Virus record (IMG/VR): IMGVR_UViG_3300004151_000009
Origin: an uncultured virus (IMG/VR IMGVR_UViG_3300004151_000009)
Lineage: Duplodnaviria; Heunggongvirae; Uroviricota; Caudoviricetes
DNA: 20,000 nt
Direction: 5' to 3' (one strand)
The notes under the pieces were generated by a model. That model was not told the DNA's origin. It saw only the letters and a program-made list of their open reading frames with translations, and did not search any database. Below, piece by piece: positions 8,966 through 20,000 of this stretch. Numbering within the stretch: position 1 is the first letter of the stretch; the number at the start of each line of letters is the position of its first letter. Position numbers and translations under genes: made by a program.

Positions 8966-8986
8966 GCTCTTTACCTTTCCTTTTTG

Positions 8987-9190
8987 TTATGCTTTCCATA
9001 GTGCGCGATGTTCAACTATGTTTGATGCAAAATACCAGTCGAGGTTCTGCGAATTTTTACAAAAAAAACGCAGGGCCAAAACCTCATGGCGCCTGTAATG
9101 CGAGAAATGATATCGTGGAAAATTGTCTTTTCCACCATGTAAAAACCAGTATTTTTCAAGGCGTATTGAAAACCACCTAAAGGATTTCAT
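8987..9190 (-). CDS. hypothetical basic/aromatic protein
   Basis: GAAAGGTG RBS; fills the operon gap. Confidence 0.55.
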   Translation of the reverse strand: MKSFRWFSIRLEKYWFLHGGKDNFPRYHFSHYRRHEVLALRFFCKNSQNLDWYFASNIVEHRALWKA

Positions 9191-9260
9191 CTCTTCACCT
9201 TTCTTTTTCCTGTTATGCCAGTATTGGCGCGCATTATCGCGATTTTATCATGCTGGTTTG

Positions 9261-9569
9261 TTATGCCGCTTTTTCCTCACTCTTGAAGTAACAAAACTCC
9301 ATTCTATCGTTGAATGGAATTGTTGTGTTGTTGATTGTCACGAACCACTCGCCTTTGTGTTGGTAAAGCGAAGCGGCAATGTCGAATTCTTCAAACGCTT
9401 GGTTAATTCTGCGTTTCGTCGTGACCGTTCGCCAGCCACCGGAGTTTAGAACGATTGTTCCCGTTTTCCGGTTGATTTTGAAAACTTGCGTATCATGATA
9501 TAAGACGCAAGTGAAACCGTTATGCTCAAAGACATGGGTTTCATGCTGGCCGATATGCTTGCATTTCAT
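9261..9569 (-). CDS. phage hypothetical protein (LNSGGWRTVTTKRRIN motif)
   Basis: GAAGGA RBS; motif recalled from small phage early proteins. Confidence 0.8.
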   Translation of the reverse strand: MKCKHIGQHETHVFEHNGFTCVLYHDTQVFKINRKTGTIVLNSGGWRTVTTKRRINQAFEEFDIAASLYQHKGEWFVTINNTTIPFNDRMEFCYFKSEEKAA

Positions 9570-9621
9570 GTTTTTTCCTTCTTTTGTGGCTTATCGTTTA
9601 TCGATAATTTTTTATTGTTTT

Positions 9622-9867
9622 TCAACCCTTGCGCGTAAACGTGCCATAGTCCACGGGTATCGGGAACCTGGTCACATAAAGCCATTCATCTAGCTGGCTT
9701 TCCGTCCATGTCGTATCAATATGCACCATTGTCCAAGTTCTATCTTGGTGATACATGCCCTGCGATTCTATGCCGATTGTGGTTTTCAATTTTTCCAGTC
9801 TTTTGACTATATAATTTGCCGCGTTTGTTGTTACATCAAAGCCTAGGTAGTTCATATAGTTTTCCAT
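9622..9867 (-). CDS. hypothetical protein
   Basis: AAAAAAGCGGGATGGA leader shared with the gene at 10082; true start may be the next Met. Confidence 0.7.
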   Translation of the reverse strand: MENYMNYLGFDVTTNAANYIVKRLEKLKTTIGIESQGMYHQDRTWTMVHIDTTWTESQLDEWLYVTRFPIPVDYGTFTRKG

Positions 9868-9881
9868 CCCGCTTTTTTTTG

Positions 9882-10082
9882 TTAATCAATGCAAGCCACG
9901 TTTTGCCATGTATCCGCCAAACGATTGAAAATATCCTGCTTGTTGACATAGGGATTTTCATGGAACTTAGGCAAGTTCAAGTATCTTGATAAATCATGCA
10001 TACCCTTTTCGTACTCTTTCACTCTTTCCTTTTCCTTTTGTAGTTCTTCTTGCAATGTCTTTATGTAGCTCATGTTCTCCAT
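9882..10082 (-). CDS. hypothetical coiled-coil protein
   Basis: Same leader as 9867; packed operon. Confidence 0.7.
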   Translation of the reverse strand: MENMSYIKTLQEELQKEKERVKEYEKGMHDLSRYLNLPKFHENPYVNKQDIFNRLADTWQNVACID

Positions 10083-10099
10083 CCCGCTTTTTTTGCTTG

Positions 10100-10375
10100 T
10101 TAATCAAAAAATCCTTCGGCAATGCTTAAAAAATCCGTTCTTGCGTATTTTCTGCCCGGCAAAGGCCGCATATCGGGCGTTCCCTCTGGAAAATTATCCT
10201 CACACGTTGCCCGGATAAATCTTGCCAAAATACGCACAATGCGCCTGTCTTCAATACCGTATTTTTCAATTAAATCGTCTTTTCTGCTTTCAATCGCCAG
10301 ATACAGGCTTTCTGTATTGCTCATCCATAAAGCCACATTCCACGTTTCCCAATTCTTCCAGCCATTATATTCCAT
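10100..10375 (-). CDS. phage hypothetical protein (YNGWKNWETWNVALW family)
   Basis: N-terminal YNGWxNxETWxVxLW motif recalled from phage early genes; GGGAAGG RBS. Confidence 0.85.
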   Translation of the reverse strand: MEYNGWKNWETWNVALWMSNTESLYLAIESRKDDLIEKYGIEDRRIVRILARFIRATCEDNFPEGTPDMRPLPGRKYARTDFLSIAEGFFD

Positions 10376-10399
10376 TGTGCTTTCCTTCCCGATTTTTTG

Positions 10400-10564
10400 T
10401 TAGCTGTTTTCCCGGCATTGCATGGACAATTCCCAAAGCCGGATAGCATACGCTGTCAAATCATCGTCCGACATTGCTTCGCTTTCCGGCGTTTCTGTTT
10501 CGGCCATTGCCATGACATCGGCAACGGTAATGTCACCATGTAGTAAATCAAGCATTGCTTGCAC
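10400..10564 (-). CDS. small acidic hypothetical protein
   Basis: GTG at 10564 after GCGGGAGGGAAGCACA, the leader type also seen at 10375 and 11379. Confidence 0.6.
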   Translation of the reverse strand: MQAMLDLLHGDITVADVMAMAETETPESEAMSDDDLTAYAIRLWELSMQCRENS

Positions 10565-10583
10565 TGTGCTTCCCTCCCGCTTT

Positions 10584-10865
10584 TTACTGGTTTCCCGGTA
10601 TTGCCCGAAAAGCATAGACCGGCATACCAGTACGGCGTTCTTGTATCTCGAAATCGTACTCCCCGTATTCAACTAGCAATGCCTTGCCCCAATATTTTCG
10701 GCCCGTGCCGAGATAATCATTTTTACGTAACCAGGCAAAAAGCTTTCGTGGCGTTATGTCTTTATCCGCAAAAGTGACGGTTTCTAACTTGTGCGCGTCA
10801 TTCCATGACCAGCCATAATCATCTCCCCATGCATCTATTGACAACATTTCATATTTTCTTTTCAT
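10584..10865 (-). CDS. phage hypothetical protein (IDAWGDDYGWSWND)
   Basis: ATCGGGGAAGG RBS. Confidence 0.8.
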   Translation of the reverse strand: MKRKYEMLSIDAWGDDYGWSWNDAHKLETVTFADKDITPRKLFAWLRKNDYLGTGRKYWGKALLVEYGEYDFEIQERRTGMPVYAFRAIPGNQ

Positions 10866-10892
10866 GCTTTTTCCTTCCCCGATTTTTAATTG

Positions 10893-11144
10893 TTACCCGA
10901 TGACCAGAATACGCCGATTGTGCGGGCCTGTCGTCTCGCCCACACTAATGCCAGCCGCCCGTAAACGGGCAAGCAGGTTATGACGGCTGGCGCAATATCG
11001 ACAAGAAAAAAGCTTGGCCTTACCCTTTAGCGTACTACCCGATAAATTTTCAATCCCATTTATAATCCCCCTTTGATAACTCCCACGGGCCAAGCTCCAT
11101 GCCCGATTGTACACGTCCATGTCTTTGCAAACGGTCCATGACAT
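10893..11144 (-). CDS. hypothetical basic protein
   Basis: Packed operon; LSGSTLKGKAK motif. Confidence 0.7.
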   Translation of the reverse strand: MSWTVCKDMDVYNRAWSLARGSYQRGIINGIENLSGSTLKGKAKLFSCRYCASRHNLLARLRAAGISVGETTGPHNRRILVIG

Positions 11145-11160
11145 GTCTTTTCTCTCTTTT

Positions 11161-11379
11161 TTAACTGTTACGGGCCTTGCGATACAGGCCGCCAGATAGC
11201 ATAATGTCTGCCCCAGGCGTGCCGCTTTCCGCGCGCCACTTGCGCCGCGCGGTCATGTATGCCTGCCGCGCTTTCCGGGCCGTCTGCCTGCCCGGCAGAA
11301 AAAGCGCGTGCCGCATATGGAAATAGTTGCCGCGCGTATCATCCCATTCCCACGATTGTCCTTCCATCTTGAGCTGCAT
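11161..11379 (-). CDS. hypothetical basic protein
   Basis: GCGGGAAGG RBS. Confidence 0.65.
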   Translation of the reverse strand: MQLKMEGQSWEWDDTRGNYFHMRHALFLPGRQTARKARQAYMTARRKWRAESGTPGADIMLSGGLYRKARNS

Positions 11380-11400
11380 TGTGCTTTTCCTTCCCGCTTT

Positions 11401-11598
11401 TTAATTGTCTGCGTCGGTAAACGAAAATGGCAGGCCACAAACCGTCTGGCCCGCACGAAACCCGGCATACAATCCAAGCGCCTGTAGCTGTTCCCGGATA
11501 TGCCTCCCGATCAAGTCCGGGCGTTCTCGGCGTATCTGTGCGCCTACCTCGTCAAAAAATATCTTGCGCCCCTGGCCGTCATAGTAATAACCGCCCAT
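11401..11598 (-). CDS. hypothetical protein (MGGYYYDGQG...)
   Basis: ATG at 11598 after GAGGA; first gene of the 8408-11598 cluster. Confidence 0.6.
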   Translation of the reverse strand: MGGYYYDGQGRKIFFDEVGAQIRRERPDLIGRHIREQLQALGLYAGFRAGQTVCGLPFSFTDADN

Positions 11599-12271
11599 TT
11601 TTTCCTCGCTTTTTTTAGGGTTGCGTTTCAAGCCGGGAACTGTTCCCGGCTTGTTTGCAATCCTTTGTCGGCTACTCTCGCCGGGCCTGTCCCGGCTAAG
11701 CTCTGGCCTGTCAATTTTCAGTGATCTTTGCGGGCCGCTTCCCCGCACGTCGTGATTATTTTCTAATCGCATTCTGGCCTTCCCGTCAAGCATTTTTTCT
11801 ATCTTTTTTTGGCCCGCTCAAAAAATTGAAATCAATTTCAAAAAATGCCGTATGTAATGATCCGGGCGCGCGAAGAGCATTTTTCATGCCAAAAAATCTT
11901 GAAAAAGGCCATTTTTCCTTGTATTGCGCTAAAAATCTAAAAACGTATCCTTGCCTAGCAAAACATGCCCGGCGCGGCAAATCGCATTCTGGCGTGTTTC
12001 AGCCCTATATGCTTCGCATAGCATAACGAAAAAAACTGGAAAAAAGCTCGATAAAAAGATTTTTTTGGCATGGTTTTTGTCGTGGCATGAAATATGCTTG
12101 GCGTTTTTTCCTGCCAGATTTTTTTGCTTTTTTTTGCTTTTTTTCGCATTTTCTTGTGCTTTTCCTGGTTTTTGGCATGGAACGTGAATTGACAAAACTT
12201 TGACTATACTACCACGGCTTTTCTCGCATATACTCTCGACATGACAAAAAAATGGCGCAGATTGCTTGCCT

Positions 12272-12387
12272 TATGCTTTCTTGGGCATATGCTTTCGCGG
12301 ACATATGCTTGACCACGCCGATATGCTTTCTTGAACATATGCTAGCTCGGACATATGCTTTTTCTAACCTATGCTTTGTGGAGCATA
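12272..12387. repeat. periodic TATGCT array (7 direct copies, 16-bp period, plus one inverted copy)
   Basis: TATGCT at 12272, 12288, 12304, 12322, 12338, 12354, 12370; AGCATA at 12382. Confidence 0.85.
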
Positions 12388-12489
12388 ACGCTGGCGGTAG
12401 TCTGGTCTGGCGGGGCGGCGGCTAAGTTCCAGGTGGGGCAGCCTGCTTACCTGTTAGGTATTCTGTCTTAAATCCTTCCCCAAAAAATG

Positions 12490-12575
12490 CTACGTTGCAA
12501 GTTGCCGGTCCCCCCTACGTTGCGGGTTGCCGGTCCCTTTTCATTTCTTGACCTACGTTGCTTGTTGTCGTTCCC
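12490..12575. repeat. three 23-bp direct repeats CTACGTTGC-NN-GTTGYCGKTCCC
   Basis: Copies at 12490-12512, 12515-12537, 12553-12575. Confidence 0.8.
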
Positions 12576-12795
12576 TTGGGTGCTTCCTGCCCGCTTCCTT
12601 GAGGTAGTGCTGATTGTTGTCAGGATGCCCTGTGCTGGACTTTCTTTTGATTCTTGGGGTTGGATACGGTCTGCTTGGTAGGCTGGCTTTAGAATGGCTT
12701 GTCTTTGGCTGGTTTTGAGTGTTCTTTGGCTGTTCGGGGTGGGTTCTTTTAGCCTAGTTCTGGTTGCTTTCCCACCCCGATTTTTTGGACTTCTG

Positions 12796-13029
12796 CTAGG
12801 CGTCGATGATCGTAAAAATATCCTCAATCGGATCGCCTTCCATGTCAATGTCGGCACGACAATGCCTGCGGTTGCCCTCCCGCTCCATTGCTTTGAAAAT
12901 CTCAAAATCCTCCCACGGAAGTACGCCTCCCCCAGAATCAGACATGGCATTGGGGGCTAACACGCTCCAAACGTCTTCAAACTGTTCACCTGAGTATCTG
13001 TCAACCCACTCCATTTGATATTTCGGCAT
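12796..13029 (-). CDS. hypothetical protein, FxxM[EK]xxG paralog family
   Basis: ATCGGGGAGG RBS; similar to 13059, 13519, 13776. Confidence 0.8.
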   Translation of the reverse strand: MPKYQMEWVDRYSGEQFEDVWSVLAPNAMSDSGGGVLPWEDFEIFKAMEREGNRRHCRADIDMEGDPIEDIFTIIDA

Positions 13030-13058
13030 GTGTTTCCTCCCCGATTTTTTGGGTTAGG

Positions 13059-13262
13059 CTAGTCTTTCAGAATGGTGTAAACATCCCCCTCGCACTCCCA
13101 CTCTAAGAGGCCCTGAGACTTCATTTTTTCAAAAATCGCCACATCTCCTCCATGCATCGCGTGTTCATCCTCGCTGCATAACGTGTTAGGGGTAAGGTGG
13201 TCCCACAATCCCTCACAACGTCGGCCAGTAAAAACATCCATCCAACTGATCTTGTATAGCAT
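13059..13262 (-). CDS. hypothetical protein, FxxM[EK]xxG paralog family
   Basis: ATCGGGGAGG RBS; MLYKISW.D.F.G...W..L.PN aligns with 12796-13029. Confidence 0.8.
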   Translation of the reverse strand: MLYKISWMDVFTGRRCEGLWDHLTPNTLCSEDEHAMHGGDVAIFEKMKSQGLLEWECEGDVYTILKD

Positions 13263-13291
13263 TTAGGATACCTCCCCGATTTTTGGTATGT

Positions 13292-13507
13292 TTAGATGTC
13301 CGATGGATCAGGCAGCGGAGGCTTCTGTGACACGATGTGGTTATGGTACAAAGCCCACCACTCTGCTAGCACGTTCTCGTGGGCCTTTGGCAGCCAGTCT
13401 CCCCCACAAGTAAAAACAGAAACGGCAATAGCCGCAAACACCGCTTTCGGACACTGCTCGTAAAAAGATATCTGCCGACTGTACTCGTTTGTCACCTTCC
13501 CGGCCAT
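13292..13507 (-). CDS. hypothetical protein (MAGKVTNEY...PKAVFAAIAVS...QKPP)
   Basis: ATG at 13507 after AAGGGGGG. Confidence 0.7.
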   Translation of the reverse strand: MAGKVTNEYSRQISFYEQCPKAVFAAIAVSVFTCGGDWLPKAHENVLAEWWALYHNHIVSQKPPLPDPSDI

Positions 13508-13518
13508 AACCCCCCTTA

Positions 13519-13746
13519 TTAAGCAGAAATTTCGTATGTGTCTTCCCACGCATCCCCGAAGTCACCCACCCCCCGCACAATCCGGGTACTCTCCCCCCGA
13601 CGTTCCATGTCTTTGAACACCTTGAAGGCGTCAAACCCCATTATACAGTCGCTCTTCAAGTCCCTGGCCTCAATATCTAAGGTAGTCCACTTCAAGGTGT
13701 AGATATTCGTCCCCGGAGTTGCCATGTACGTGTATGTGTAGAGCAT
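13519..13746 (-). CDS. hypothetical protein, FxxM[EK]xxG paralog family
   Basis: ATG at 13746 after AGGGGGG; FKDMERRG...EDTYEI. Confidence 0.75.
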   Translation of the reverse strand: MLYTYTYMATPGTNIYTLKWTTLDIEARDLKSDCIMGFDAFKVFKDMERRGESTRIVRGVGDFGDAWEDTYEISA

Positions 13747-13775
13747 ACCCCCCCTTTGTTTTTTTGAAGTTGATT

Positions 13776-14015
13776 TCAATCCCAGGCGTACTTGATGAAA
13801 AAAGTCTTACCCGGTTCGATGTTCTTTGTCAAGCCCATGTTTTCCATTTCTTGGAAAGTATCCGCTTCCGCCTTGGTCATGATAACACTCTTGTACATAC
13901 CCTTCCGAAAATAGATAGGTACAGACAGGTATCCCTGCTTTGCCTCGTTCCAAGTGATCTCAAGGGCCTTGCCATCCCCCATACCTTCGCTGGCGTACTG
14001 TATCTTGTAGGTCAT
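13776..14015 (-). CDS. hypothetical protein, FxxM[EK]xxG paralog family (divergent)
   Basis: ATG at 14015 after GGGAGGG; MTYKIQY...FQEMENMG. Confidence 0.75.
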   Translation of the reverse strand: MTYKIQYASEGMGDGKALEITWNEAKQGYLSVPIYFRKGMYKSVIMTKAEADTFQEMENMGLTKNIEPGKTFFIKYAWD

Positions 14016-14046
14016 GTGCTTTCCCTCCCGCTCGTTTGTTGAGTAC

Positions 14047-14075
14047 AGACTACCGCTTTCGGGCAGGTTTGTCAA
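14047..14075 (-). promoter_or_regulatory. sigma70-type promoter cassette
   Basis: TTGACA-N17-TAGTCT then CTCAACAAA leader and RBS. Confidence 0.7.
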
Positions 14076-14223
14076 GGTTTTTTATGACCAGTTTGGCCGC
14101 TTGCAGACGCTTCTCGTCTTCCTTGGTATTCAACCACGGGCACATGTTCAACGCCTTGACCATATTCTTGAGTGCCCAAGCGGGCTGGTTCCCCACTATG
14201 CTTCTCGCTTCCTGTAATGTCAT
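14050..14223 (-). CDS. 57-aa hypothetical protein ([33 protein letters not shown]...)
   Basis: Translated by hand and absent from the ORF track, probably too short for it; GGGAGGG RBS. Confidence 0.7.
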
Positions 14224-14226
14224 GAC

Positions 14227-14448
14227 CTAACCCTCCCGCCTCTTGTAACAAGGGCAATTCTCGTGCGGGGTTTCCGCTTCTACCATCACACCGTCAGCAT
14301 GTGCCCCGGTGGGCGGAAGCGGGATGGTGTCCAGGTAAAAACATCGCCCCATAAAATGGTCATCCTCCGGGTATCCGTTGTGTGTCTCCCAGATCGTATT
14401 CCAGTTGCAATACTTACAGGTATGACAAGTCCCTTCCTTGAGTTGCAT
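14227..14448 (-). CDS. Cys-rich small protein (CHTCKYC...C...CPC)
   Basis: ATG at 14448 after GAGGGGGAG, directly after a promoter. Confidence 0.75.
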   Translation of the reverse strand: MQLKEGTCHTCKYCNWNTIWETHNGYPEDDHFMGRCFYLDTIPLPPTGAHADGVMVEAETPHENCPCYKRREG

Positions 14449-14473
14449 AGGCTCCCCCTCATTCATTGAAGAC

Positions 14474-14502
14474 ATTATGTGCTTTTTCTTGGAAAATGTC
14501 AA
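14474..14502 (-). promoter_or_regulatory. sigma70-type promoter cassette
   Basis: TTGACA-N17-CATAAT; 14452-14503 matches 15623-15674 at 51/52. Confidence 0.8.
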
Positions 14503-14521
14503 GAGGTTAATCTGGTAAAAT

Positions 14522-15112
14522 CTAGTAAGTGTCTTCCCTATCAAATTCTTCCAGCCCCGCCCGGAATGCCTCCCACTTGAAGTCCACAAAGGCATCCCGT
14601 AGCCGCTCGATATGGCATTGCATAAGCCGCTCGAAGTCATCCAACTGCTTCGCACAACGCTGCAATGCCTCTTTCTCTATGAACTTGCCTAAACTCGCGT
14701 GGAAGTGTTCAAGGACCGGGATAAAGTCAATCTCCTGCCCGTCAAATGTGAAAGCGATCCGCTTGTCAAGGCACCCATCACCATGTACCTCCACCCCGGG
14801 AGCCTTTTCCAAAGCAAGGTAAAACAACGACTTGACGAGGGTCAAGGAGCTGTCTGTGTGTAGTTCTCGGATAGTCGTTTCTTTTTTCATGTGCATACCC
14901 CCGGCATACTCCCGATTTTTTGCTTCGGCGTATGTCATAGCCTTGTCAAAATAATTCTGACGCTTGGCACCTATCCTGCCGATCTTGCGAACCGTTCGGC
15001 TCCTGTCGTTGAACACGCACCAGTAATCCCCTATGCTGCCCACCCGGCACGGGCCTGTGGTGGTTGGCGAATGGACGGCACCGCAGTAGTGATTTTCGTA
15101 AGTGTCTGACAT
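14522..15112 (-). CDS. hypothetical protein, possibly a fusion of two small genes (internal start at 14890)
   Basis: ATG at 15112 after the repeated GAGGGGGGTAGGAAC leader; internal G-rich RBS and ATG at 14890. Confidence 0.65.
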   Translation of the reverse strand: MSDTYENHYCGAVHSPTTTGPCRVGSIGDYWCVFNDRSRTVRKIGRIGAKRQNYFDKAMTYAEAKNREYAGGMHMKKETTIRELHTDSSLTLVKSLFYLALEKAPGVEVHGDGCLDKRIAFTFDGQEIDFIPVLEHFHASLGKFIEKEALQRCAKQLDDFERLMQCHIERLRDAFVDFKWEAFRAGLEEFDREDTY

Positions 15113-15139
15113 GGTTCCTACCCCCCTCATTTGTTTTGT

Positions 15140-15298
15140 CTATCTGTCCACAACGCCATTCACGTACTGGCGGGATGCCTTCAAAGACTTCGCAAGGACA
15201 GCCCCAAGTTCAGGGTGCTTGCGGACTGCCTGCCACCCATCACTGTCAACTAACTGGCGAATTTGTGCGGCCTGCTTTCTGGAAATAATGGCATTCAT
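15140..15298 (-). CDS. small hypothetical protein (MNAIISRKQ...)
   Basis: ATG at 15298 after the promoter/RBS cassette. Confidence 0.65.
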   Translation of the reverse strand: MNAIISRKQAAQIRQLVDSDGWQAVRKHPELGAVLAKSLKASRQYVNGVVDR

Positions 15299-15326
15299 GT
15301 TCCTACCCCCCTCATTTGTTAGAAAC

Positions 15327-15355
15327 AGTATGTGATTTTTCTTGGAAAATGTCAA
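15327..15355 (-). promoter_or_regulatory. sigma70-type promoter cassette
   Basis: TTGACA-N17-CATACT. Confidence 0.8.
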
Positions 15356-15371
15356 GCGTATTTTTAATTTG

Positions 15372-15620
15372 CTATTTAATCCCTTCGCGGATTCGGTTGG
15401 CACACCACAACACACGATCAGGATGTAGCCCGCAACAATCTGAGCTAAGTTCTGGATTTACCACCATATCGTCAGCCACATCGGCAGCACCGGGAAGGAC
15501 TCGCCCAAGTAGATGTAGATACCCGATTGCATTTGCCACCCTGTCCCCCCCATAAGCCGGGTGGCGTCCCTCGAAGATCGCTGCGGATTCTCTCAAGATG
15601 TCAACGGTAGTGCTGTTCAT
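15372..15620 (-). CDS. hypothetical protein
   Basis: Own promoter/RBS cassette. Confidence 0.7.
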   Translation of the reverse strand: MNSTTVDILRESAAIFEGRHPAYGGDRVANAIGYLHLLGRVLPGAADVADDMVVNPELSSDCCGLHPDRVLWCANRIREGIK

Positions 15621-15644
15621 GACTCCCCCTCATTCGTTGAAGAC

Positions 15645-15673
15645 ATTATGTGCTTTTTCTTGGAAAATGTCAA
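15645..15673 (-). promoter_or_regulatory. sigma70-type promoter cassette
   Basis: TTGACA-N17-CATAAT. Confidence 0.8.
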
Positions 15674-15706
15674 GCGTTATTTTTAACTTGCAACTTGATC
15701 CCCCCA

Positions 15707-15991
15707 TTACTTCCATGCGGCATACTTTGCCAGGAAGTCTAGACGTTCCTGTTCCTGCGTCAAGGCGTCTGTGAGTGGGATCAGGGACTCTTCTACCCGC
15801 GCAGCCCTCTCCCGGTCAAGAAAAAAACCTACCGTCTGATCCGCATAGTCTGACCGCACATCGGTCACGCTTGTATAAGTGTACTGGCAATGCGGGCAGT
15901 AATCCCACCCCGCACCCTGGCCCCGGAGGTGCGAACAAAACTCACAAGCCGAAGACGCGCTTGAGATGGCAACTCTTTCCATTCTTTCCAT
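15707..15991 (-). CDS. Zn-ribbon-like protein (CEFC...CPHC)
   Basis: Two CxxC pairs; own promoter/RBS cassette. Confidence 0.7.
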   Translation of the reverse strand: MERMERVAISSASSACEFCSHLRGQGAGWDYCPHCQYTYTSVTDVRSDYADQTVGFFLDRERAARVEESLIPLTDALTQEQERLDFLAKYAAWK

Positions 15992-16019
15992 GTTCCTACC
16001 CCCCTCATTTGTTAGAAAC

Positions 16020-16049
16020 AGTATAGACCAAGAATCCCAGAAATGTCAA
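16020..16049 (-). promoter_or_regulatory. sigma70-type promoter cassette
   Basis: TTGACA-N18-TATACT; leader 15989-16024 identical to 15296-15331. Confidence 0.75.
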
Positions 16050-16070
16050 GTAGTTTTTTCGCAGTCAAAT

Positions 16071-16535
16071 TCAATTATTGACCCGGATCATGCGGTATTG
16101 CGGGTTGGTAGTCGTCTCCGTTCCAAATTCCAGATACAGATGACGCTTACCCTTGCGATAGATGACCAAGTACACCGAATCCGAATACAGACCAAGTTCC
16201 TTGTGCTTGGCGGTCATCTTGGCCCCGCTGTACCATTCCACCCGCACCTCGTCCCCCTCCCGCAAAAGGGACAGGATAGACTCCGCATGATATGCCGTGC
16301 TGTACAAAGCCGTGTAATAACATCCGCTCAAGTCCTTTGCCCTGGCCGAATAGTTTGAAAAATACGCCTTTGTCTCAAAAGCGTAGGTGTACTCCCCGTT
16401 CTCCCGCACGATGTGAAACTCCCACTTGCAAGTACCCGCCCCTGGCTCAGACCGTAAAACCAGGGACTTGCTCAGATACTTTTCAGCCTTGAGGACGTAC
16501 TTGATAGCCTTGATGTCTTCCTTGGTAAGTTCCAT
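16071..16535 (-). CDS. hypothetical protein
   Basis: ATCGGGAGGG RBS; 154 aa. Confidence 0.8.
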   Translation of the reverse strand: MELTKEDIKAIKYVLKAEKYLSKSLVLRSEPGAGTCKWEFHIVRENGEYTYAFETKAYFSNYSARAKDLSGCYYTALYSTAYHAESILSLLREGDEVRVEWYSGAKMTAKHKELGLYSDSVYLVIYRKGKRHLYLEFGTETTTNPQYRMIRVNN

Positions 16536-16555
16536 AGTGTTTCCCTCCCGATTTT

Positions 16556-16741
16556 TTAATAAAGGGCATCCAAAGGAAGAACGATCTCATTTCCTACGCA
16601 ACGCTCATTTTCTGCCGCTTCCTTGGATGGAAAAACCCGGATTCGATTCAATACTCTTGTATAAGAGTTTTTGCTTCCAGGCTTGGCAACGTATCCACCT
16701 TCGCCACCTGTCCTTTTCAAAATGAATCCATTTGATTGCAT
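16556..16741 (-). CDS. small phage hypothetical protein (GYVAKPGSKNSYT...C.GNE)
   Basis: Directly after the promoter/RBS cassette. Confidence 0.75.
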   Translation of the reverse strand: MQSNGFILKRTGGEGGYVAKPGSKNSYTRVLNRIRVFPSKEAAENERCVGNEIVLPLDALY

Positions 16742-16771
16742 GTGTGTTTCCCTCCCCGATTTGTTGAGTAG

Positions 16772-16800
16772 AGTATGCGCTAAAAACCTGGAAATGTCAA
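16772..16800 (-). promoter_or_regulatory. sigma70-type promoter cassette
   Basis: TTGACA-N17-CATACT; exact inverted copy of 7260-7312. Confidence 0.8.
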
Positions 16801-16823
16801 GAGGTTTTTTGAAGTTAATGGCG

Positions 16824-16855
16824 AAAAAAAAGCGGGAAGGCTTGCACCTTCCCGC
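16824..16855 (-). terminator. rho-independent terminator
   Basis: 9-bp stem GCGGGAAGG/CCTTCCCGC, 6-nt loop, T8 on the minus strand. Confidence 0.85.
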
Positions 16856-16883
16856 ACTAACTATTCAGGATTCTTTGAGATGT

Positions 16884-17825
16884 TTAGATTTCAATCAGCC
16901 GGATCAGTTCCGCCTTGTCCGGGGTTGTGATCGTCACGACAAGGCCGCTCGTGTGCCGGTATTCAGTGTCCCCGTAGGCGTCCTCCCCACTTTCCAGGTT
17001 CAGCCACCCCAGAGTCACCGTGGCCTTGTCACCCAAAGCCTTGCGGGCCTCCCGCAACTTCTCAATTTCGGCCAGTTCGGGCTTGTCGCGCTCGTTCCAT
17101 CCCGCAGCCTCCCCCTCCCGGATTCCGGCGGGAAGTTTGGCGTCCGCCAGCACATTCACGACGTATTCCTGACGGGCCAGGGCCTTCCAATCAAAGCCCT
17201 CTTCAAGTCTGGCAAGCAGCAACTCCGATCCATGCGCCTTGGCCCACTTCTCCAAAGCCGCCTCACCTTCTGCCGCTTCCTGCCGCTTGCGGGCCTCGTA
17301 CTCGTCCCGGCTCTTTTCCATGTCCTGCCGCTTCCGCAACTGTTCGGCTAACTCCGCTTCACGCTTGGCTTTCTTGGCCTCTCCCGCCTCTACCAGTTGC
17401 GCTTTGATGCTGTCAAACTCTTCCTCAACCCACCGATAGCGGGCCTTCTCAAACTCCAAGGCGGCGGAAAAACTCTCAAAAGGTGCGTCAAACCCCTCTT
17501 TCATGACATAAGAGGCAAGGGATGGGTCGTCCTTATCATGTCCAATTATGCCGATGATCGGGGAGCCGTGCTTGACAATGTACAGGCTGTCGGTGCTGAT
17601 GGTCTGAGTGCCCTCCCGCTCCCGGCGGATGGACACCCCACCCCCCACAACCTGAGTCTGCAAAAGGGCCAGGGTCAGGCTGCCGTCCCGGTCAACCTTA
17701 AAAAAGTCAACGTCTTCCGGGGAAATCTCGCCGGTCAAGGTCTGCATGGCCTTGCCGTCCAGCCCGCGCTTCAAAGCCTCACGCTGCCCAGCCTCAGTCA
17801 GCTTGTAAGTGATCGTCGCCTTCAT
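16884..17825 (-). CDS. hypothetical protein with central coiled coil (313 aa)
   Basis: ATG at 17825 after GGGAGGG; E/K/A/R-rich helix; followed by a terminator. Confidence 0.85.
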   Translation of the reverse strand: MKATITYKLTEAGQREALKRGLDGKAMQTLTGEISPEDVDFFKVDRDGSLTLALLQTQVVGGGVSIRREREGTQTISTDSLYIVKHGSPIIGIIGHDKDDPSLASYVMKEGFDAPFESFSAALEFEKARYRWVEEEFDSIKAQLVEAGEAKKAKREAELAEQLRKRQDMEKSRDEYEARKRQEAAEGEAALEKWAKAHGSELLLARLEEGFDWKALARQEYVVNVLADAKLPAGIREGEAAGWNERDKPELAEIEKLREARKALGDKATVTLGWLNLESGEDAYGDTEYRHTSGLVVTITTPDKAELIRLIEI

Positions 17826-17920
17826 TTTTCGTTCCCTCCCGCCCGGCCCCTGCCGGGGTTGTTGTTTCATGTCCCGCGCCATCCCCAGACGGGGCGGTGT
17901 TCCCCATTCCGTTGAGTAGG

Positions 17921-17949
17921 AGTCTACTCAATCCTTCCAGGTTTGTCAA
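17921..17949 (-). promoter_or_regulatory. sigma70-type promoter with an 8-bp inverted repeat over the -10 box
   Basis: TTGACA-N17-TAGACT; TTGAGTAG/CTACTCAA at 17912-17931; 26 bp identical to 18080-18105. Confidence 0.75.
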
Positions 17950-17965
17950 GCGTTTTCTTGTTTTT

Positions 17966-18065
17966 TGGTGGAGGCAGCCGGACTCGAACCGGCATCTACC
18001 GGCCCCTTACAGGGGTGCCCGCGTCCGGGCGTCCATTGTCGTTCTACCGATTAAACTATGCCCCC
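17966..18065 (-). ncRNA. tRNA-like RNA (100 nt) with Ala acceptor identity and non-canonical anticodon domain
   Basis: Acceptor GGGGGCA/TGCCTCC with G3:U70, A73, encoded CCA; D arm GTTT-AATCGGTA-GAAC; T arm GCCGG-TTCGAGT-CCGGC; own promoter at 18076-18104. Confidence 0.85.
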
Positions 18066-18075
18066 ATGAAGTAGA

Positions 18076-18104
18076 AGAATACTCAATCCTTCCAGGTTTG
18101 TCAA
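18076..18104 (-). promoter_or_regulatory. sigma70-type promoter of the tRNA-like RNA
   Basis: TTGACA-N17-TATTCT ending 10 nt before G1; no RBS follows. Confidence 0.8.
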
Positions 18105-18109
18105 GAGAT

Positions 18110-18385
18110 TTAATAATAAACCCCTAAAGCCCGGCACGCCAGGAAAGAAAAATCTGTGTTGTGCCCGATGTGCTTGACGGCCATAGCCTGTAACAAGGCA
18201 CCCTCAATCGTAGTGCATCCGCAGTTCGTGTCCCGCCCCTCCACATACGGGTGAAATATCCGGTGGTCCTCCTTGTCAAGATGCTCCACGATGCTGTACG
18301 GCCCGACCTCGTGGACTTCCACCACAACCCCCCACACAAAGTCTATCGTATTACCGTAAATCTGTGTCGGTCTACGCACTTTCAT
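18110..18385 (-). CDS. hypothetical protein
   Basis: AAGGAG RBS; overlaps the upstream gene. Confidence 0.75.
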   Translation of the reverse strand: MKVRRPTQIYGNTIDFVWGVVVEVHEVGPYSIVEHLDKEDHRIFHPYVEGRDTNCGCTTIEGALLQAMAVKHIGHNTDFSFLACRALGVYY

Positions 18386-18620
18386 ACTCCTTCACCATAT
18401 CCACCGCTTGTTGAAGAAGACTCATGCCTTCTGGGGTGGGGGAGTCCACGCATAAATCCTCAGCCACAGCAATAACCTTTTTCAAGAGTACACGAAGTTT
18501 CTCAAAGTCCTCCCACTCCACATAGGTGCCATCGGCGTCAAGTTCCATGTCACAGCCGGGGCAGTCGTCGTCACTGAGCCACAACGCACTGGACTCAAGA
18601 GAGTACCGTTTTATGCTCAT
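18372..18620 (-). CDS. hypothetical acidic protein
   Basis: ATGA overlap with 18617-18922. Confidence 0.7.
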   Translation of the reverse strand: MSIKRYSLESSALWLSDDDCPGCDMELDADGTYVEWEDFEKLRVLLKKVIAVAEDLCVDSPTPEGMSLLQQAVDMVKEYESA

Positions 18621-18922
18621 GTAGCCAACCCCTTTTTGAAGTGCTTTCTCACTGCGGCCTTGTATTCCGACGGCAACGGCATAACCGTTATAAGCACCTG
18701 CGCCAGACTGTAAATGTACACCATTTCCCCGTAAATCTTGATGTCTTTGGGCTTGGAGTGGTGCGCGGAAAACAGCGCATCGAAATACTTTTCAAGCCTC
18801 CCCGTTGCGTGTCTCCTTCCCATGCCCTTACTGTAGGCGATTGTTGCAGTCCTGTCAAGGGCTTTCTTTGGGAGTCCAACCCTCTCTTTTAAGCGTCTCG
18901 CTGCATGGTATGTGGTATGCAT
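18617..18922 (-). CDS. basic protein with TxHAxxRxxER motif (possible RelE/BrnT/DUF4258-like fold)
   Basis: GGGGAGG RBS; TYHAARRLKER at the N-terminus and LITV near the C-terminus. Confidence 0.7.
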   Translation of the reverse strand: MHTTYHAARRLKERVGLPKKALDRTATIAYSKGMGRRHATGRLEKYFDALFSAHHSKPKDIKIYGEMVYIYSLAQVLITVMPLPSEYKAAVRKHFKKGLAT

Positions 18923-18931
18923 GGCCTCCCC

Positions 18932-19543
18932 CTACATCCTGGCGAAGACTGCAACGTCTCCGTTATAAGTGCGTTCGGACCAATAGCTGTCAATAAACAG
19001 GTCACGGGCGTATGCGTCATAGTCGAAATACGCTTGCAGATGTTCGGGGATGGAATCCAATTCCCCCATTTCGTCAAGCAGTTGCTCCGCAAATGCTGTT
19101 TCAGAATCAAAAGTGCCCTGGAAAGCATCCTGAAAATCATCCAGGGTTGCATCCCCACCGTTGTCGTTTGCGTAAATGGCGTAAGCCTCCCCACCCTCTT
19201 CCAGAAGCCCATCCAGCTCGACAATCCTGTCCAGCGGGGTGTACTCCTCGACCAGCCCGTAAAATCCCTCTGAGTCATGAATGGCCCACTCCTCCGCAGA
19301 CGGGAACGGGGAGGGCAAAGCACCGCCACAATCCGGGCACCGCTCCCATTTGGCGTCCACATAAACGTCGCAGTCCTTGCAACGTCTACGCATGACATTG
19401 GGGTACTTGCTCATGGCAAGCAAGGCGTTAATCTGCGACTGAAGGCTTTCCGCACTCTCCCCGTCAACGTCGATCCATGTGCCCCGCGCTTCCCCGTTGT
19501 TGTAGTCGGCCAGGATGGACACATAGATTTTTCTGTCGCTCAT
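18932..19543 (-). CDS. ardA: antirestriction protein ArdA (DNA mimic) with Zn-ribbon insertion
   Basis: IYV..LADYNNG...G.WID, EEWAIHDSEGF, YFDYDAYARDLF; highly acidic. Confidence 0.93.
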   Translation of the reverse strand: MSDRKIYVSILADYNNGEARGTWIDVDGESAESLQSQINALLAMSKYPNVMRRRCKDCDVYVDAKWERCPDCGGALPSPFPSAEEWAIHDSEGFYGLVEEYTPLDRIVELDGLLEEGGEAYAIYANDNGGDATLDDFQDAFQGTFDSETAFAEQLLDEMGELDSIPEHLQAYFDYDAYARDLFIDSYWSERTYNGDVAVFARM

Positions 19544-19575
19544 TTCGTTACCCTCCCGCTTGATTTGTTGAAGTC

Positions 19576-19604
19576 AGTATGTGCTATTTTCCAGGTTTTG
19601 TCAA
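19576..19604 (-). promoter_or_regulatory. sigma70-type promoter of ardA
   Basis: TTGACA-N17-CATACT then GACTTCAACAAATC leader. Confidence 0.8.
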
Positions 19605-19631
19605 GCACTTTTCCCATTGACTTCACTATTT

Positions 19632-19943
19632 TCAGGAAGGCGACCAACCGTGCAGACAAAAGACCCTGAGAAGCGGGTTAACCCGCTGCAAAGTGCTGCG
19701 AATGTCGTTCGTTTTACTGTACCCGGAACCCCCCAGACGGAAATGAAAAGCCGGATATTGGCTATGCTTACTGTAAATCTGATCGGGCAGCATTTCCTTA
19801 GACTTTTTGCCAAGGTCCGAATCCGACGGCCAGAGGATATTCAACCCCTCACCCTCGTCCAGGTACACGGCAAAGCGCGTGTTAGAAAGTTGAAGGATGT
19901 AAGCCCGCTTTGCGTCCTGAATTTGTTCCGCTTGTGCCTTCAT
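19632..19943 (-). CDS. hypothetical protein (MKAQAEQIQDAK...FRLGGSGYSK)
   Basis: ATG at 19943 after GGGAGGG; the ORF-track start at 20000 is the TTG of the -35 box. Confidence 0.75.
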   Translation of the reverse strand: MKAQAEQIQDAKRAYILQLSNTRFAVYLDEGEGLNILWPSDSDLGKKSKEMLPDQIYSKHSQYPAFHFRLGGSGYSKTNDIRSTLQRVNPLLRVFCLHGWSPS

Positions 19944-19971
19944 GTGTGTTCCCTCCCGATTTGTTGAAGTC

Positions 19972-20000
19972 AGTATGTTCTTTTTCTGGGAAAATGTCAA
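19972..20000 (-). promoter_or_regulatory. sigma70-type promoter cassette
   Basis: TTGACA-N17-CATACT then GACTTCAACAAATC leader. Confidence 0.75.

What the first reader, a model, noticed from the sequence alone, without database searches (positions are those of the whole stretch)
17966..18065. tRNA-like RNA with alanine identity but anticodon arm replaced by two hairpins
Seen (minus strand): GGGGGCATAGTTTAATCGGTAGAACGACAATGGACGCCCGGACGCGGGCACCCCTGTAAGGGGCCGGTAGATGCCGGTTCGAGTCCGGCTGCCTCCACCA. Acceptor stem, D arm, T arm and CCA are intact, and it has its own promoter. G3:U70 and A73 are the established AlaRS determinants, and AlaRS ignores the anticodon. Between the D and T arms are hairpins GCCCG-GACG-CGGGC and CCCC-TGTAA-GGGG, possibly closed by a bulged AC(AA)TGG/CCGGT stem, instead of a 5-bp stem with a 7-nt loop. 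It is far too short for tmRNA and keeps a D stem, which tmRNA lacks. Inference: a chargeable non-decoding tRNA mimic, such as a decoy for anticodon nucleases, EF-Tu or RelA, a minimal alanine donor for stalled ribosomes, or an unusual decoder using the GUA-containing loop.
Basis: partly seen in the sequence, partly recalled or inferred. Interest (0 to 1): 0.82.

Follow-up and report, generated by a model that had tools for sequence, protein, structure and literature searches.

The report
Phage alanine-type tRNA mimic without anticodon
An uncultured freshwater phage carries a gene for an RNA that has the body and alanine-charging marks of a tRNA but GC-rich hairpins where the codon-reading arm should be, so it probably can take up alanine without reading codons, and its job is untested.

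Summary
Window 17966-18065 (minus strand) is the only Rfam hit in the window: tRNA, 48.6 bits against a cut-off of 29. Acceptor stem, D arm, T arm and CCA are intact, and 38 nt replace the 13 central model positions. ARAGORN calls nothing here. The tmRNA model gives 26.9 bits, below its cut-off of 47. Four of the five bacterial alanine identity elements are present.

No single deletion restores a 5-bp/7-nt anticodon arm, so this is not a simple intron or insertion. A sigma-70-like promoter ends 11 nt upstream. No terminator separates the RNA from a 313-aa orphan gene.

The complete phage (106 kb) also encodes ArdA, RtcB, an RNA ligase, RlaP and an ArfB-like protein.

No sequence relative was found, so there is no covariation or expression evidence. 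The two hairpins are no more stable than in shuffled sequence.

A narrow scan of viral contigs found other long alanine-type tRNA-shaped RNAs without an anticodon, so the kind recurs. In print I found only the "TLD-only" tmRNA of mycobacteriophage DS6A.

Best reading: a chargeable, non-decoding tRNA-Ala mimic acting as a decoy or competitor. Confidence about 0.45.

The parts
18076..18104 (-). Promoter-like site P1 (TTGACA, 17 nt, TATTCT) driving the tRNA-like RNA
   Evidence: Consensus scan, 10 of 12 matches. A 26-nt stretch containing it recurs exactly 155 nt downstream at P2.
17966..18065 (-). tRNA-shaped RNA gene of 100 nt including the encoded CCA; alanine-type acceptor stem
   Evidence: Rfam tRNA 48.6 bits, model 1-71. 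tmRNA model 26.9 bits, below its cut-off. ARAGORN silent. An identical copy lies in the 106-kb record G001.
18041..18056 (-). D arm (GUUU / AAUCGGUA / GAAC) with G18G19
   Evidence: Aligned to the D arm of the tRNA model; read directly.
17998..18039 (-). 42-nt GC-rich module in place of the 17-nt anticodon arm (RNA positions 27-68)
   Evidence: 38 nt against 13 model positions. No contiguous deletion restores a canonical arm; the best case has 4 of 5 pairs and no U33. Unique in the 106-kb genome.
18017..18030 (-). Hairpin 1: GCCCG-GACG-CGGGC
   Evidence: Present in the minimum-energy and constrained folds. No covariation data.
18003..18015 (-). Hairpin 2: CCCC-UGUAA-GGGG, containing the motif CUGUAA
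   Evidence: Present in the minimum-energy and constrained folds. No covariation data.
17977..17993 (-). T arm (GCCGG / UUCGAGU / CCGGC)
   Evidence: Aligned to the T arm of the tRNA model.
17921..17949 (-). Promoter-like site P2 (TTGACA, 17 nt, TAGACT), a duplicate of P1, in front of the next gene
16884..17825 (-). 313-aa orphan gene downstream on the same strand; no terminator lies between it and the RNA
   Evidence: ORF. No Pfam or PHROG family. Only 2 proteins at E <= 0.001: one 100% identical, probably the same gene, and a 195-aa fragment at 77% identity. AlphaFold2 model pLDDT 48.6.
16832..16855 (-). Intrinsic-terminator-like hairpin (10 pairs, then T8) closing the unit

Best explanation
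This is a gene of a roughly 106-kb phage for a tRNA-Ala-derived RNA that keeps everything in the upper half of a tRNA.

It keeps the 7-bp acceptor stem with G3.U70 and A73, the encoded CCA, the D and T arms, and the core tertiary positions. The anticodon arm has been remodelled into a branched GC-rich module of two small hairpins.

Shown: it is tRNA-shaped, of alanine type and without an anticodon; a promoter-like site lies 11 nt upstream; and it heads a unit with an orphan gene that ends at a terminator.

Inferred:
- It is transcribed early.
- It is trimmed like a tRNA (RNase P at the 5' end, host enzymes at the 3' end).
- It is alanylated by host AlaRS, which does not read the anticodon.
- It cannot decode, because hairpin 2 probably stacks on the closing stem and gives an arm of about 9 bp.

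Most likely job (inference from context only): a stable tRNA-shaped decoy or competitor in the conflict over host tRNAs and translation. It would bind a host factor that recognises the tRNA body or acceptor end, or a factor drawn by the hairpins it displays. The same phage invests in anti-restriction (ArdA), RNA repair (RtcB, RNA ligase, RlaP) and ribosome rescue (an ArfB-like protein).
For: - tRNA model 48.6 bits, full length, with a 38-nt central insert.
- Alanine identity: 4 of 5 elements present, against Table 1 of PMC9976931 (sequence).
- Positions flanking the insert that build the tRNA core (G26/A44, G45, A15/U48) are canonical (read).
- No single deletion gives back a normal arm, so this is remodelling rather than one insertion event.
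- The insert is not a repeat element of this genome.
- Promoter P1, duplicated promoter P2 and a terminator only after the next gene.
- Context: ArdA 0.9 kb upstream on the same strand. The complete genome also has RtcB, an RNA ligase (PF09414), RlaP and an RF-1 domain protein. RlaP is reported to repair damaged tRNA ends (abstract of PMC12776372).
- The kind recurs. A narrow IMG/VR pattern returned 46 loci. Of 20 representatives, 4 are long RNAs matched end to end by the tRNA model with a large central insert: L167, L173, L185, L188. ARAGORN, tried on all four, called none of them (L188 as its larger locus L204).
- One of these families (5 variants) keeps its hairpins.
- L188 is the only one of the 4 alignments printed, out of 42 sources searched, whose centre aligns to a model of this RNA instead of being skipped.
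Against: - No relative of this RNA or of its locus could be retrieved, so there is no covariation and no test of conservation.
- The insert folds no better than its shuffles, z -0.6.
- The closing stem is not favoured by the energy model.
- Similarity of the insert to L188 is not above chance: local score 16 against 11.8 +/- 2.0, reached by 5% of 2000 shuffles.
- G20, a minor alanine determinant, is U.
- The exact 26-nt promoter duplication suggests a recent rearrangement. If so, the intact body could reflect youth rather than selection.
- Links to particular partner genes are not supported. RtcB is in 0 of 7 other records with such RNAs. The RF-1 domain is in 2 of 7, against 3 of 9 in a crude control.
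- The one sizeable distant relative of the phage (98 kb, 80% complete) has no match to the tRNA model at all.
Confidence: 0.45

Rival explanations
1. It is a disabled tRNA-Ala gene. A once normal phage tRNA lost its anticodon arm through rearrangement, and the gene is now a neutral relic that may still be transcribed.
For: - It is a singleton with no detectable relatives.
- The hairpins are not more stable than chance.
- The local 155-nt promoter duplication points to recent rearrangement.
- At a relaxed threshold, ARAGORN forces a tRNA-Ala(GGC) reading with a 12-nt 'intron', so a GGC triplet sits in the insert.
Against: - Everything outside the arm is intact, including the core positions next to the insert, the encoded CCA and the promoter.
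- No single deletion restores an arm, so several changes all fell in one place.
- The relaxed ARAGORN call has only 3 of 5 stem pairs and G33. The same threshold also calls a tRNA on the opposite strand, which marks it as noise.
- Similar anticodon-less alanine-type RNAs recur in other viral contigs, and one family is conserved.
Confidence: 0.22
2. It is a tmRNA-like rescue or anti-rescue RNA. Like the 'TLD-only' tmRNA of mycobacteriophage DS6A, it would engage SmpB or stalled ribosomes, either inhibiting trans-translation or donating alanine. A three-codon frame (GCA CCC CUG UAA) could be read as a minimal tag.
For: - Alanine-type acceptor and T arm, as in tmRNA.
- The DS6A element is said to consist of little more than the TLD, and a similar molecule is reported to inhibit tmRNA (passages of PMC4131195 and PMC11915505).
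- Two-residue tags are reported in PMC11915505.
- The phage has an RF-1 domain, ArfB-like protein.
- The frame GCA..UAA is present (read).
Against: - tmRNA model 26.9 bits against a cut-off of 47, while the tRNA model gives 48.6.
- DS6A scores 43.2 bits on the tmRNA model and has no D stem; this RNA has a normal D arm.
- This RNA has a stem where SmpB sits in tmRNA. The SmpB position is taken from the introduction of PMC4131195.
- ARAGORN's tmRNA mode finds nothing even at 80% threshold.
- No pseudoknot.
- The frame lies across two hairpins, and a frame this short is expected by chance.
Confidence: 0.1
3. It is a decoding tRNA after unconventional processing. The insert, or part of it, would be cut out and the halves rejoined, for instance by the phage RtcB. 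Alternatively the CUGUAAG loop would read Tyr codons.
For: - The phage encodes RtcB and a second RNA ligase.
- The hairpin-2 loop region CUGUAAG resembles the anticodon loop CUGUAAA of an ordinary phage tRNA-Tyr(GUA) (L201).
Against: - No contiguous deletion yields a 5-bp stem with a 7-nt loop and U33.
- ARAGORN's intron mode finds nothing at its default threshold.
- No group I intron or ribozyme family matches.
- RtcB is absent from 7 of 7 other records with such RNAs.
- An alanine-charged reader of Tyr codons would mistranslate.
Confidence: 0.07
4. It is a cis-acting processing or stability element. The tRNA shape would serve only as an RNase P / RNase E cleavage signal that sets the 5' end or the level of the downstream 313-aa mRNA.
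For: - No terminator lies between the RNA and the gene. P1 transcripts must run into the gene, and the unit ends at one strong terminator.
- The L188 element also lies directly upstream of same-strand ORFs.
Against: - The gene has its own copy of the promoter (P2), so it does not need P1.
- A processing signal would not need G3.U70, A73 or an encoded CCA.
Confidence: 0.08

Closest known systems
Canonical bacterial or phage tRNA-Ala (Rfam RF00005)
   Same: 7-bp acceptor stem with G3.U70, G2-C71, G4-C69 and A73; CCA; D arm with G18G19; T arm; core tertiary positions. It passes the family's gathering score.
   Different: No 5-bp/7-nt anticodon arm and no anticodon; 42 nt of branched hairpins stand in its place; U20 instead of G20; not called by ARAGORN. 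The body is not close to any of the 82 ordinary tRNA-Ala genes that share its T arm. The best local score of its 26-nt 5' part against them was 15 of a possible 26.
'TLD-only' (CDS-less) tmRNA of Mycobacterium phage DS6A (PMC4131195, PMC11915505; JN698994.1, about 28478-28560)
   Same: A phage-encoded, alanine-type, anticodon-less, tag-less small RNA with acceptor stem and T arm, lying between protein genes.
   Different: DS6A is of tmRNA type: tmRNA model 43.2 bits, no D stem, a single helix capped by a small hairpin, 83 nt. This RNA is of tRNA type: tRNA 48.6 bits against tmRNA 26.9 bits, with a full D arm and a stem in the place where SmpB would sit.
Unnamed long alanine-type tRNA-shaped RNAs in IMG/VR (L188; family L167/L173/L183/L191/L193; L185)
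   Same: Matched end to end by the tRNA model with a large central insert, G3.U70/A73/CCA, missed by ARAGORN. L188 also has a closing stem, then 'AC', a 5-bp/4-nt hairpin, one nucleotide, then CUGUAA, and the same T-stem 5' strand.
   Different: No significant sequence similarity in the insert. The topology of the second element differs in L188. The phages and neighbouring genes are different. I found no description of these RNAs in print.
YrlA / bacterial Y RNA tRNA-like module (Rfam RF02553)
   Same: A tRNA mimic of non-decoding function. In the literature it is linked to RtcB operons (recalled, not tested here).
   Different: No match to RF02553 even at E <= 10. In YrlA matches seen elsewhere the tRNA-like part is permuted, as in Ruegeria phage RpAliso. 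This RNA has ordinary 5' and 3' ends in the acceptor stem.
Engineered 'tRNA scaffold' RNAs (a cargo RNA replaces the anticodon arm so that the chimera is processed and stable); recalled, not looked up
   Same: The same design: a tRNA body carrying foreign hairpins in place of the anticodon arm.
   Different: Man-made. No natural phage example of this design was found by my searches.

Membership tests
tRNA (Rfam RF00005; elongator tRNA-Ala) | Cloverleaf body: 7-bp acceptor stem, D arm with G18G19, T arm with UUC..A, scoring above the family's gathering score | tested here: met
   48.6 bits against 29, model 1-71.
tRNA (Rfam RF00005; elongator tRNA-Ala) | 5-bp anticodon stem with a 7-nt loop (U33, anticodon, R37) | tested here: not met
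   38 nt replace 13 model positions. ARAGORN makes no call. No deletion restores the arm.
tRNA (Rfam RF00005; elongator tRNA-Ala) | Bacterial alanine identity set: A73, G2-C71, G3.U70, G4-C69, G20 (Table 1 of PMC9976931) | tested here: met
   4 of 5 present, including the main determinant G3.U70; position 20 is U.
tRNA (Rfam RF00005; elongator tRNA-Ala) | Is aminoacylated and decodes on the ribosome | not testable with these tools
   Needs an alanylation assay and translation tests.
tmRNA, including TLD-only forms (Rfam RF00023) | Score at or above the family's gathering score, or a call by ARAGORN's tmRNA mode | tested here: not met
   26.9 bits against 47. ARAGORN -m finds nothing at default or at 80% threshold. 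DS6A scores 43.2 and L186 scores 64.
tmRNA, including TLD-only forms (Rfam RF00023) | tRNA-like domain without a D stem and without an anticodon-stem equivalent, leaving that space to SmpB | tested here: not met
   A 4-bp D stem and a closing stem with two hairpins are present.
tmRNA, including TLD-only forms (Rfam RF00023) | Tag reading frame with a resume codon and a stop | tested here: inconclusive
   GCA CCC CUG UAA can be read across the hairpins, but there is no pseudoknot, no relative and no way to test use.
Intron-containing tRNA (group I or bulge-helix-bulge type) | Removing one contiguous segment yields a canonical tRNA; an intron family or motif is recognisable | tested here: not met
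   Best deletion gives 4 of 5 pairs and no U33. No intron or ribozyme family matches. ARAGORN's intron mode finds nothing at default threshold.
YrlA / Y RNA-like (Rfam RF02553) | Match to the family model | tested here: not met
   No match at E <= 10 in 17750-18150.
Phage anticodon-less alanine-type tRNA mimics (informal class; no published definition found) | tRNA-model match over the whole RNA with a large central insert, plus G3.U70, A73 and CCA | tested here: met
   for this RNA. The same holds for L167, L173, L185 and L188.
Phage anticodon-less alanine-type tRNA mimics (informal class; no published definition found) | Demonstrable common descent with other members (sequence or covarying structure) | tested here: inconclusive
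   Insert similarity to L188 is not above shuffles. Of the 4 alignments printed, L188 is the only one whose centre aligns to model R1 (40.6 bits). R1 was built from this one sequence.

The most novel reading that the evidence does not exclude
The RNA belongs to an undescribed class of phage effector RNAs. In this class an alanine-chargeable tRNA body acts as a self-processing, stable chassis that displays bait hairpins instead of an anticodon.

Here the bait includes a tRNA-Tyr-like loop motif (CUGUAA), which is also present in the independent IMG/VR element L188. The RNA would trap or mislead a host tRNA-directed defence enzyme or a ribosome-rescue factor while being unable to mistranslate.
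Probability: 0.12. Interest if true: 0.85.

Novelty: new variant of a known kind. Interest (0 to 1): 0.55.

Why it matters
Phages are known to carry tRNAs, tmRNAs and tRNA-repair enzymes as weapons in conflicts over translation.

A tRNA-shaped RNA that keeps the alanine-charging marks but deliberately lacks an anticodon would be a different tool: a chargeable molecule that cannot decode.

The only printed precedent I found is the tag-less tmRNA stump of phage DS6A, which is said to inhibit trans-translation.

If the tRNA-type versions seen here and in other viral contigs are functional, they form an unannotated class, invisible to ARAGORN. That class could reveal which host factors read the upper half of a tRNA during infection. 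It would also be a natural counterpart of the engineered tRNA scaffold.

Standard tRNA finders miss such genes, so phage annotation currently overlooks them.

Tried and rejected
**Relatives by DNA**
- INPHARED blastn with 701 nt gave no match.
- INPHARED blastn with the 100 nt at E <= 10 hit 175 records. None (0 of 175) covered 80% of the query; the matches were mostly to the T-arm/acceptor 3' part.
- Four IMG/VR pattern scans found only this phage's own 106-kb record plus 4 unrelated tRNAs with a long variable arm and one chance match (checked).
- The fifth scan, built on motifs shared with L188, added only an ordinary tRNA-Tyr.

**Relatives by the neighbouring gene**
- IMG/VR: only the phage's own record.
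- Protein database: 2 proteins at E <= 0.001, one 100% identical (probably the same gene) and one 195-aa fragment at 77% identity.
- JGI metagenomes: only the source contig.

**Genome-contig scan with the T arm plus CTCCA**
82 are ordinary tRNA-Ala. 41 got no ARAGORN call and, by eye, are 3' remnants of tRNA-Ala or tmRNA 3' ends. None resembles this RNA.

**Phage relatives by DNA polymerase**
- 6 loci were found. The only sizeable distant relative (98 kb) has no match to the tRNA model.
- Isolated phages are at most about 30% identical in this protein. The host stays unknown.

**Sequencing runs**
- No RNA holder was listed. Six DNA runs were listed.
- Four runs were laid. The near-identical run covers the stretch. 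Contigs of a relative in a wastewater run cover part of the 313-aa gene and stop at 17886, before the RNA, which shows nothing either way.

**Downstream protein**
- No Pfam or PHROG family.
- The Atlas gave no usable hit.
- The AlphaFold2 model has pLDDT 48.6, too poor for a fold search, so none was run.

**Other ideas tested or set aside**
- Insert as a repeat element of the genome: not found.
- Homology between the insert and the GC-rich leader of the next gene: beyond the duplicated promoter the alignment looks like noise, and the leader fold has z -0.6.
- Co-occurrence with RtcB (0 of 7) and with the RF-1 domain (2 of 7, against 3 of 9 in a crude control made of unrelated large phage records): no support.
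- Hammerhead or other small ribozyme: no Rfam match, and junction strands of 2, 1 and 0 nt do not fit.
- CRISPR-repeat mimic (RNA anti-CRISPR): considered, but not testable without a host, and no repeat family matched.
Full report
**What is there**

Rfam's tRNA model (RF00005) matches 17969-18065 over its whole length at 48.6 bits (gathering score 29, E 7.5e-08). This is the only Rfam match in the 20-kb window. The alignment keeps the acceptor stem, D arm, T arm and discriminator, and puts 38 nt where the model has 13 central positions.

ARAGORN reports no tRNA or tmRNA in the window. A local run of ARAGORN with introns allowed also finds nothing, and so does its tmRNA mode at an 80% threshold. 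Only at the 80% threshold with introns does it force a tRNA-Ala(GGC) with a 12-nt 'intron', 3 of 5 stem pairs and G33. The same setting also calls a tRNA on the opposite strand, so I treat this result as noise.

The tmRNA model gives 26.9 bits against a cut-off of 47. A permissive Rfam search of 17750-18150 adds nothing credible and no YrlA match.

**Identity and core**

Read from the sequence, the acceptor stem is G1-C72, G2-C71, G3.U70, G4-C69, G5-C68, C6-G67, A7-U66, followed by A73 and CCA. Table 1 of PMC9976931 lists A73, G2-C71, G3.U70, G4-C69 and G20 as the bacterial alanine determinants and shows no anticodon determinant (passages and table seen). Four of the five are present, and position 20 is U.

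The positions that build the tRNA core in standard numbering are all canonical: U8, A14, A15 with U48, G18G19, A21, G26 with A44, G45, G53-C61, and U54U55C56 with A58. The numbering is established knowledge, applied by me. This includes the positions that directly flank the insert, so the RNA should fold into the usual L shape down to the first two pairs of the anticodon stem (A27-U, C28-G).

**The insert**

RNA positions 27-68 (42 nt, window 17998-18039) replace the 17-nt arm. Hairpins GCCCG-GACG-CGGGC and CCCC-UGUAA-GGGG appear in the unconstrained minimum-energy fold (-44.4 kcal/mol, z -2.05, 5 of 200 shuffles as stable). They also appear when the cloverleaf is enforced (-40.6).

- The insert alone is no more stable than its dinucleotide shuffles: -17.7 against -16.1 +/- 2.7, z -0.6, with 27% of 1000 shuffles as stable.
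- The hairpins are therefore plausible but unproven.
- I tried every contiguous deletion that would leave 17 nt plus a 4- or 5-nt variable loop. The best leaves 4 of 5 stem pairs and no U33, so neither a simple intron nor a single insertion explains the arm.
- The insert is unique in the 106-kb genome and is not a repeat element.
- Hairpin 2 runs straight into the 3' strand of the closing stem, so the two probably stack into an arm of about 9 bp with hairpin 1 branching off. This is my inference. Such an arm could not reach the decoding centre in the usual way.

**Transcription unit**

Five sigma-70-like sites with a perfect TTGACA and 17-nt spacer lie on the minus strand of 16500-19700, against 1.8 +/- 1.4 in shuffles.

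- P1 (18104-18076) ends 11 nt before G1.
- P2 (17949-17921) lies 17 nt after the CCA.
- A 26-nt stretch including the -35 box is identical at P1 and P2, 155 nt apart.
- No terminator separates the RNA from the next gene, a 313-aa orphan at 16884-17825.
- A strong terminator (10 pairs, then T8) follows that gene at 16855-16832.

The orphan has no Pfam or PHROG family. The protein search found only 2 proteins at E <= 0.001: a 100% identical 296-aa entry, probably the same gene, and a 195-aa fragment at 77% identity. Its AlphaFold2 model is poor (pLDDT 48.6).

**The phage**

The window is the reverse complement of bases 1-20000 of a 25.3-kb IMG/VR record. An identical copy of the RNA sits in a 106,007-bp record that CheckV rates 100% complete. 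The same sequence recurs near both ends of that record. The record has one ordinary tRNA, Thr(UGU), at 60.7 bits.

Genes recognised in or near the window:
- ArdA (window 18932-19543, same strand, 0.9 kb upstream)
- PhoH
- A 122-aa RF-1 domain protein of ArfB type (5440-5808)
- An RlaP nucleotidyltransferase (3-1007)

Elsewhere in the genome: RtcB, an RNA ligase (PF09414), a family A DNA polymerase, DnaB, RecA, an integrase, ThyX and tail genes. RlaP enzymes are reported to add nucleotides to damaged RNA 3' ends and to be needed to restore function to repaired tRNA (abstract of PMC12776372).

The nearest isolated phages, siphoviruses of Alphaproteobacteria, share at most about 30% identity in the polymerase. 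The host is unknown. The runs that hold the DNA are freshwater metagenomes.

**Search for relatives**

None was found. Details and counts are under Tried and rejected.

**Is it one of a kind?**

Notes from earlier sessions of this scan describe several alanine-type tRNA mimics without an anticodon in other phages. They name the 'TLD-only' tmRNA of mycobacteriophage DS6A as the closest known thing. I treated these notes as leads and tested what I could.

- *Literature.* PMC4131195 lists DS6A as 'TLD only' and says a similar molecule strongly inhibits tmRNA, perhaps by titrating SmpB, citing Mao et al. 2009 (passages). PMC11915505 repeats this and reports CDS-less tmRNAs in plastids and 2-residue tags (passages). 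Mao et al. 2009 itself is not in the library.
- *DS6A.* The element (JN698994.1, between genes 33 and 34) scores 43.2 bits on the tmRNA model. It has no D stem and is 83 nt long. The present RNA is of another type: tRNA 48.6 bits against tmRNA 26.9 bits, with a D arm present.
- *IMG/VR pattern.* A narrow pattern (GGGG..., a 60-90-nt gap, a standard T loop, CTCCACCA) returned 46 loci. 35 of them have at least 6 of 7 acceptor pairs.
- *Classification of 20 representatives by Rfam.*
  - 4 are long RNAs matched end to end by the tRNA model with a big central insert: L173 at 41.3 bits, L167 at 40.8, L185 at 38.5 and L188 at 33.9.
  - 4 contain an ordinary-length tRNA.
  - 10 are of tmRNA type, including apparent TLD-only forms such as L186 (82 nt, 64 bits).
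  - 2 match nothing at E <= 0.01.
- *ARAGORN* was tried on L167, L173, L185 and on L204, the larger locus that contains the L188 element, and called none of them.
- *One family is conserved.* The L167 family (5 variants, 120-124 nt) keeps its hairpins, and 4 of 32 predicted pairs show changes on both sides.

So tRNA-type, alanine-marked, anticodon-less RNAs do recur in viral contigs.

**L188**

This 108-nt RNA comes from a 63-kb record rated 100% complete. Its layout is similar to the present RNA: a closing stem, then 'AC', a 5-bp/4-nt hairpin, one nucleotide, then CUGUAA, a similar variable region and the same T-stem 5' strand. Of the 4 alignments printed, out of 42 sources searched, it is the only one whose centre aligns to a covariance model built from the present RNA rather than being skipped (40.6 bits).

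The insert similarity is not above chance: local score 16 against 11.8 +/- 2.0, reached by 5% of 2000 shuffles. The model rests on a single sequence. The motif search that joined the two RNAs was designed from them. I therefore count L188 as a possible distant relative and nothing more. Its neighbourhood is unrelated.

CUGUAAA is the anticodon loop of an ordinary phage tRNA-Tyr(GUA) found by the same scan. The resemblance of CUGUAAG/CUGUAAA in the two mimics is noted but unexplained.

**Partner genes**

RtcB is in 0 of 7 other records that carry tRNA-type mimics. The RF-1 domain is in 2 of 7, against 3 of 9 unrelated large phage records, three of which are one lineage. Most of these records are fragments. 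I see no support for a fixed partner.

**Reading**

- Shown: a tRNA-family gene with alanine identity marks and no anticodon arm, placed behind a promoter-like site at the head of a two-part unit in the early, anti-defence part of a large phage genome.
- Inferred: it is transcribed, trimmed like a tRNA and alanylated, and it cannot decode.
- Most likely job (context only): a decoy or competitor in tRNA-centred conflict with the host. Confidence about 0.45 for a functional, chargeable, non-decoding mimic, and less for any particular target.
- Rivals: a recently disabled tRNA-Ala gene (0.22), a tmRNA-like rescue or anti-rescue RNA (0.10), a cis-acting processing element (0.08), and a decoder after unconventional splicing (0.07).

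**Novelty**

My literature searches found no description of tRNA-type anticodon-less alanine mimics in phages. I read passages of PMC10690425, which lists candidate structured RNAs of viruses. The DS6A stump and CDS-less organellar tmRNAs are the nearest things in print. I rate this RNA a new variant of a known kind. The lack of relatives, of expression data and of statistical support for the hairpins keeps the score moderate.

Noticed in passing
window 5440-5808 (+): A 122-aa protein with an RF-1 domain (PF00472, 1.3e-24; phrog_3122). This is the size and type of ArfB/ICT1-like peptidyl-tRNA hydrolases, so it is a ribosome-rescue-type factor carried by the phage.
   Followed up: partly
window 3-1007 (-); G001 90985-92091 and 101647-102552: An RNA-repair set: the RlaP nucleotidyltransferase (PF10127, phrog_388) in the window, with RtcB (PF01139, 2.7e-87) and an RNA ligase (PF09414) elsewhere in the complete genome.
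   Followed up: partly
window 17826-17920 (-): A GC-rich leader of about 95 nt lies between promoter P2 and the start of the 313-aa gene, with several possible hairpins. Its fold is not better than shuffles (z -0.6) and no Rfam family matches.
   Followed up: partly
window 18079-18104 and 17924-17949 (-): An exact 26-nt duplication that includes the -35 box, 155 nt apart, brackets the RNA gene. A third, diverged copy (6 mismatches) lies in the terminal repeat of the 106-kb record.
   Followed up: partly
L017 (Ruegeria phage RpAliso OR257569.1, 2986-3823): An unannotated stretch with the 3' piece of a permuted or alpha-type tmRNA (RF04321 64.8 bits; RF01849 55.6 bits), followed by two permuted tRNA-like modules that match YrlA below its cut-off (42.3 and 34.7 bits against 69).
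   Followed up: partly
L154 349-430 (Escherichia phage REP8 OQ174507.1, 5918-5999; the same piece in many Felixounavirus records): An 82-nt RNA annotated 'tRNA-OTHER' has G3.U70, A73 and CCA, a UCU-type anticodon loop, an almost absent D arm and a long variable region. The tRNA model gives 31.2 bits and ARAGORN is silent. An alanine-marked odd tRNA in cultured phages.
   Followed up: partly
L167, L173, L183, L191, L193 (IMG/VR): A family of 120-124-nt alanine-type tRNA-shaped RNAs with a D arm and conserved hairpins in place of the anticodon arm. The tRNA model gives about 41 bits, and ARAGORN was silent on the two tried (L167, L173). The records are 5-27% complete fragments, probably of large phages.
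   Followed up: partly
L186 and L190 (identical to each other), and L158 (IMG/VR): RNAs of 81-82 nt that match the tmRNA model end to end with the whole middle missing (64 and 39.5 bits). These are apparent TLD-only tmRNAs like that of DS6A, found in uncultured viral contigs.
   Followed up: no
L006-L009 (IMG/VR, records of 102-365 kb): tRNAs of about 92 nt with a long variable arm and a UAU-type anticodon loop, sitting in tRNA clusters of huge phages (49.7-58.3 bits). The combination is unusual.
   Followed up: no
L185 (IMG/VR, 376-kb record): A 112-nt alanine-type RNA in which the extra hairpins appear to sit inside the D loop rather than in the anticodon arm (tRNA model 38.5 bits).
   Followed up: no
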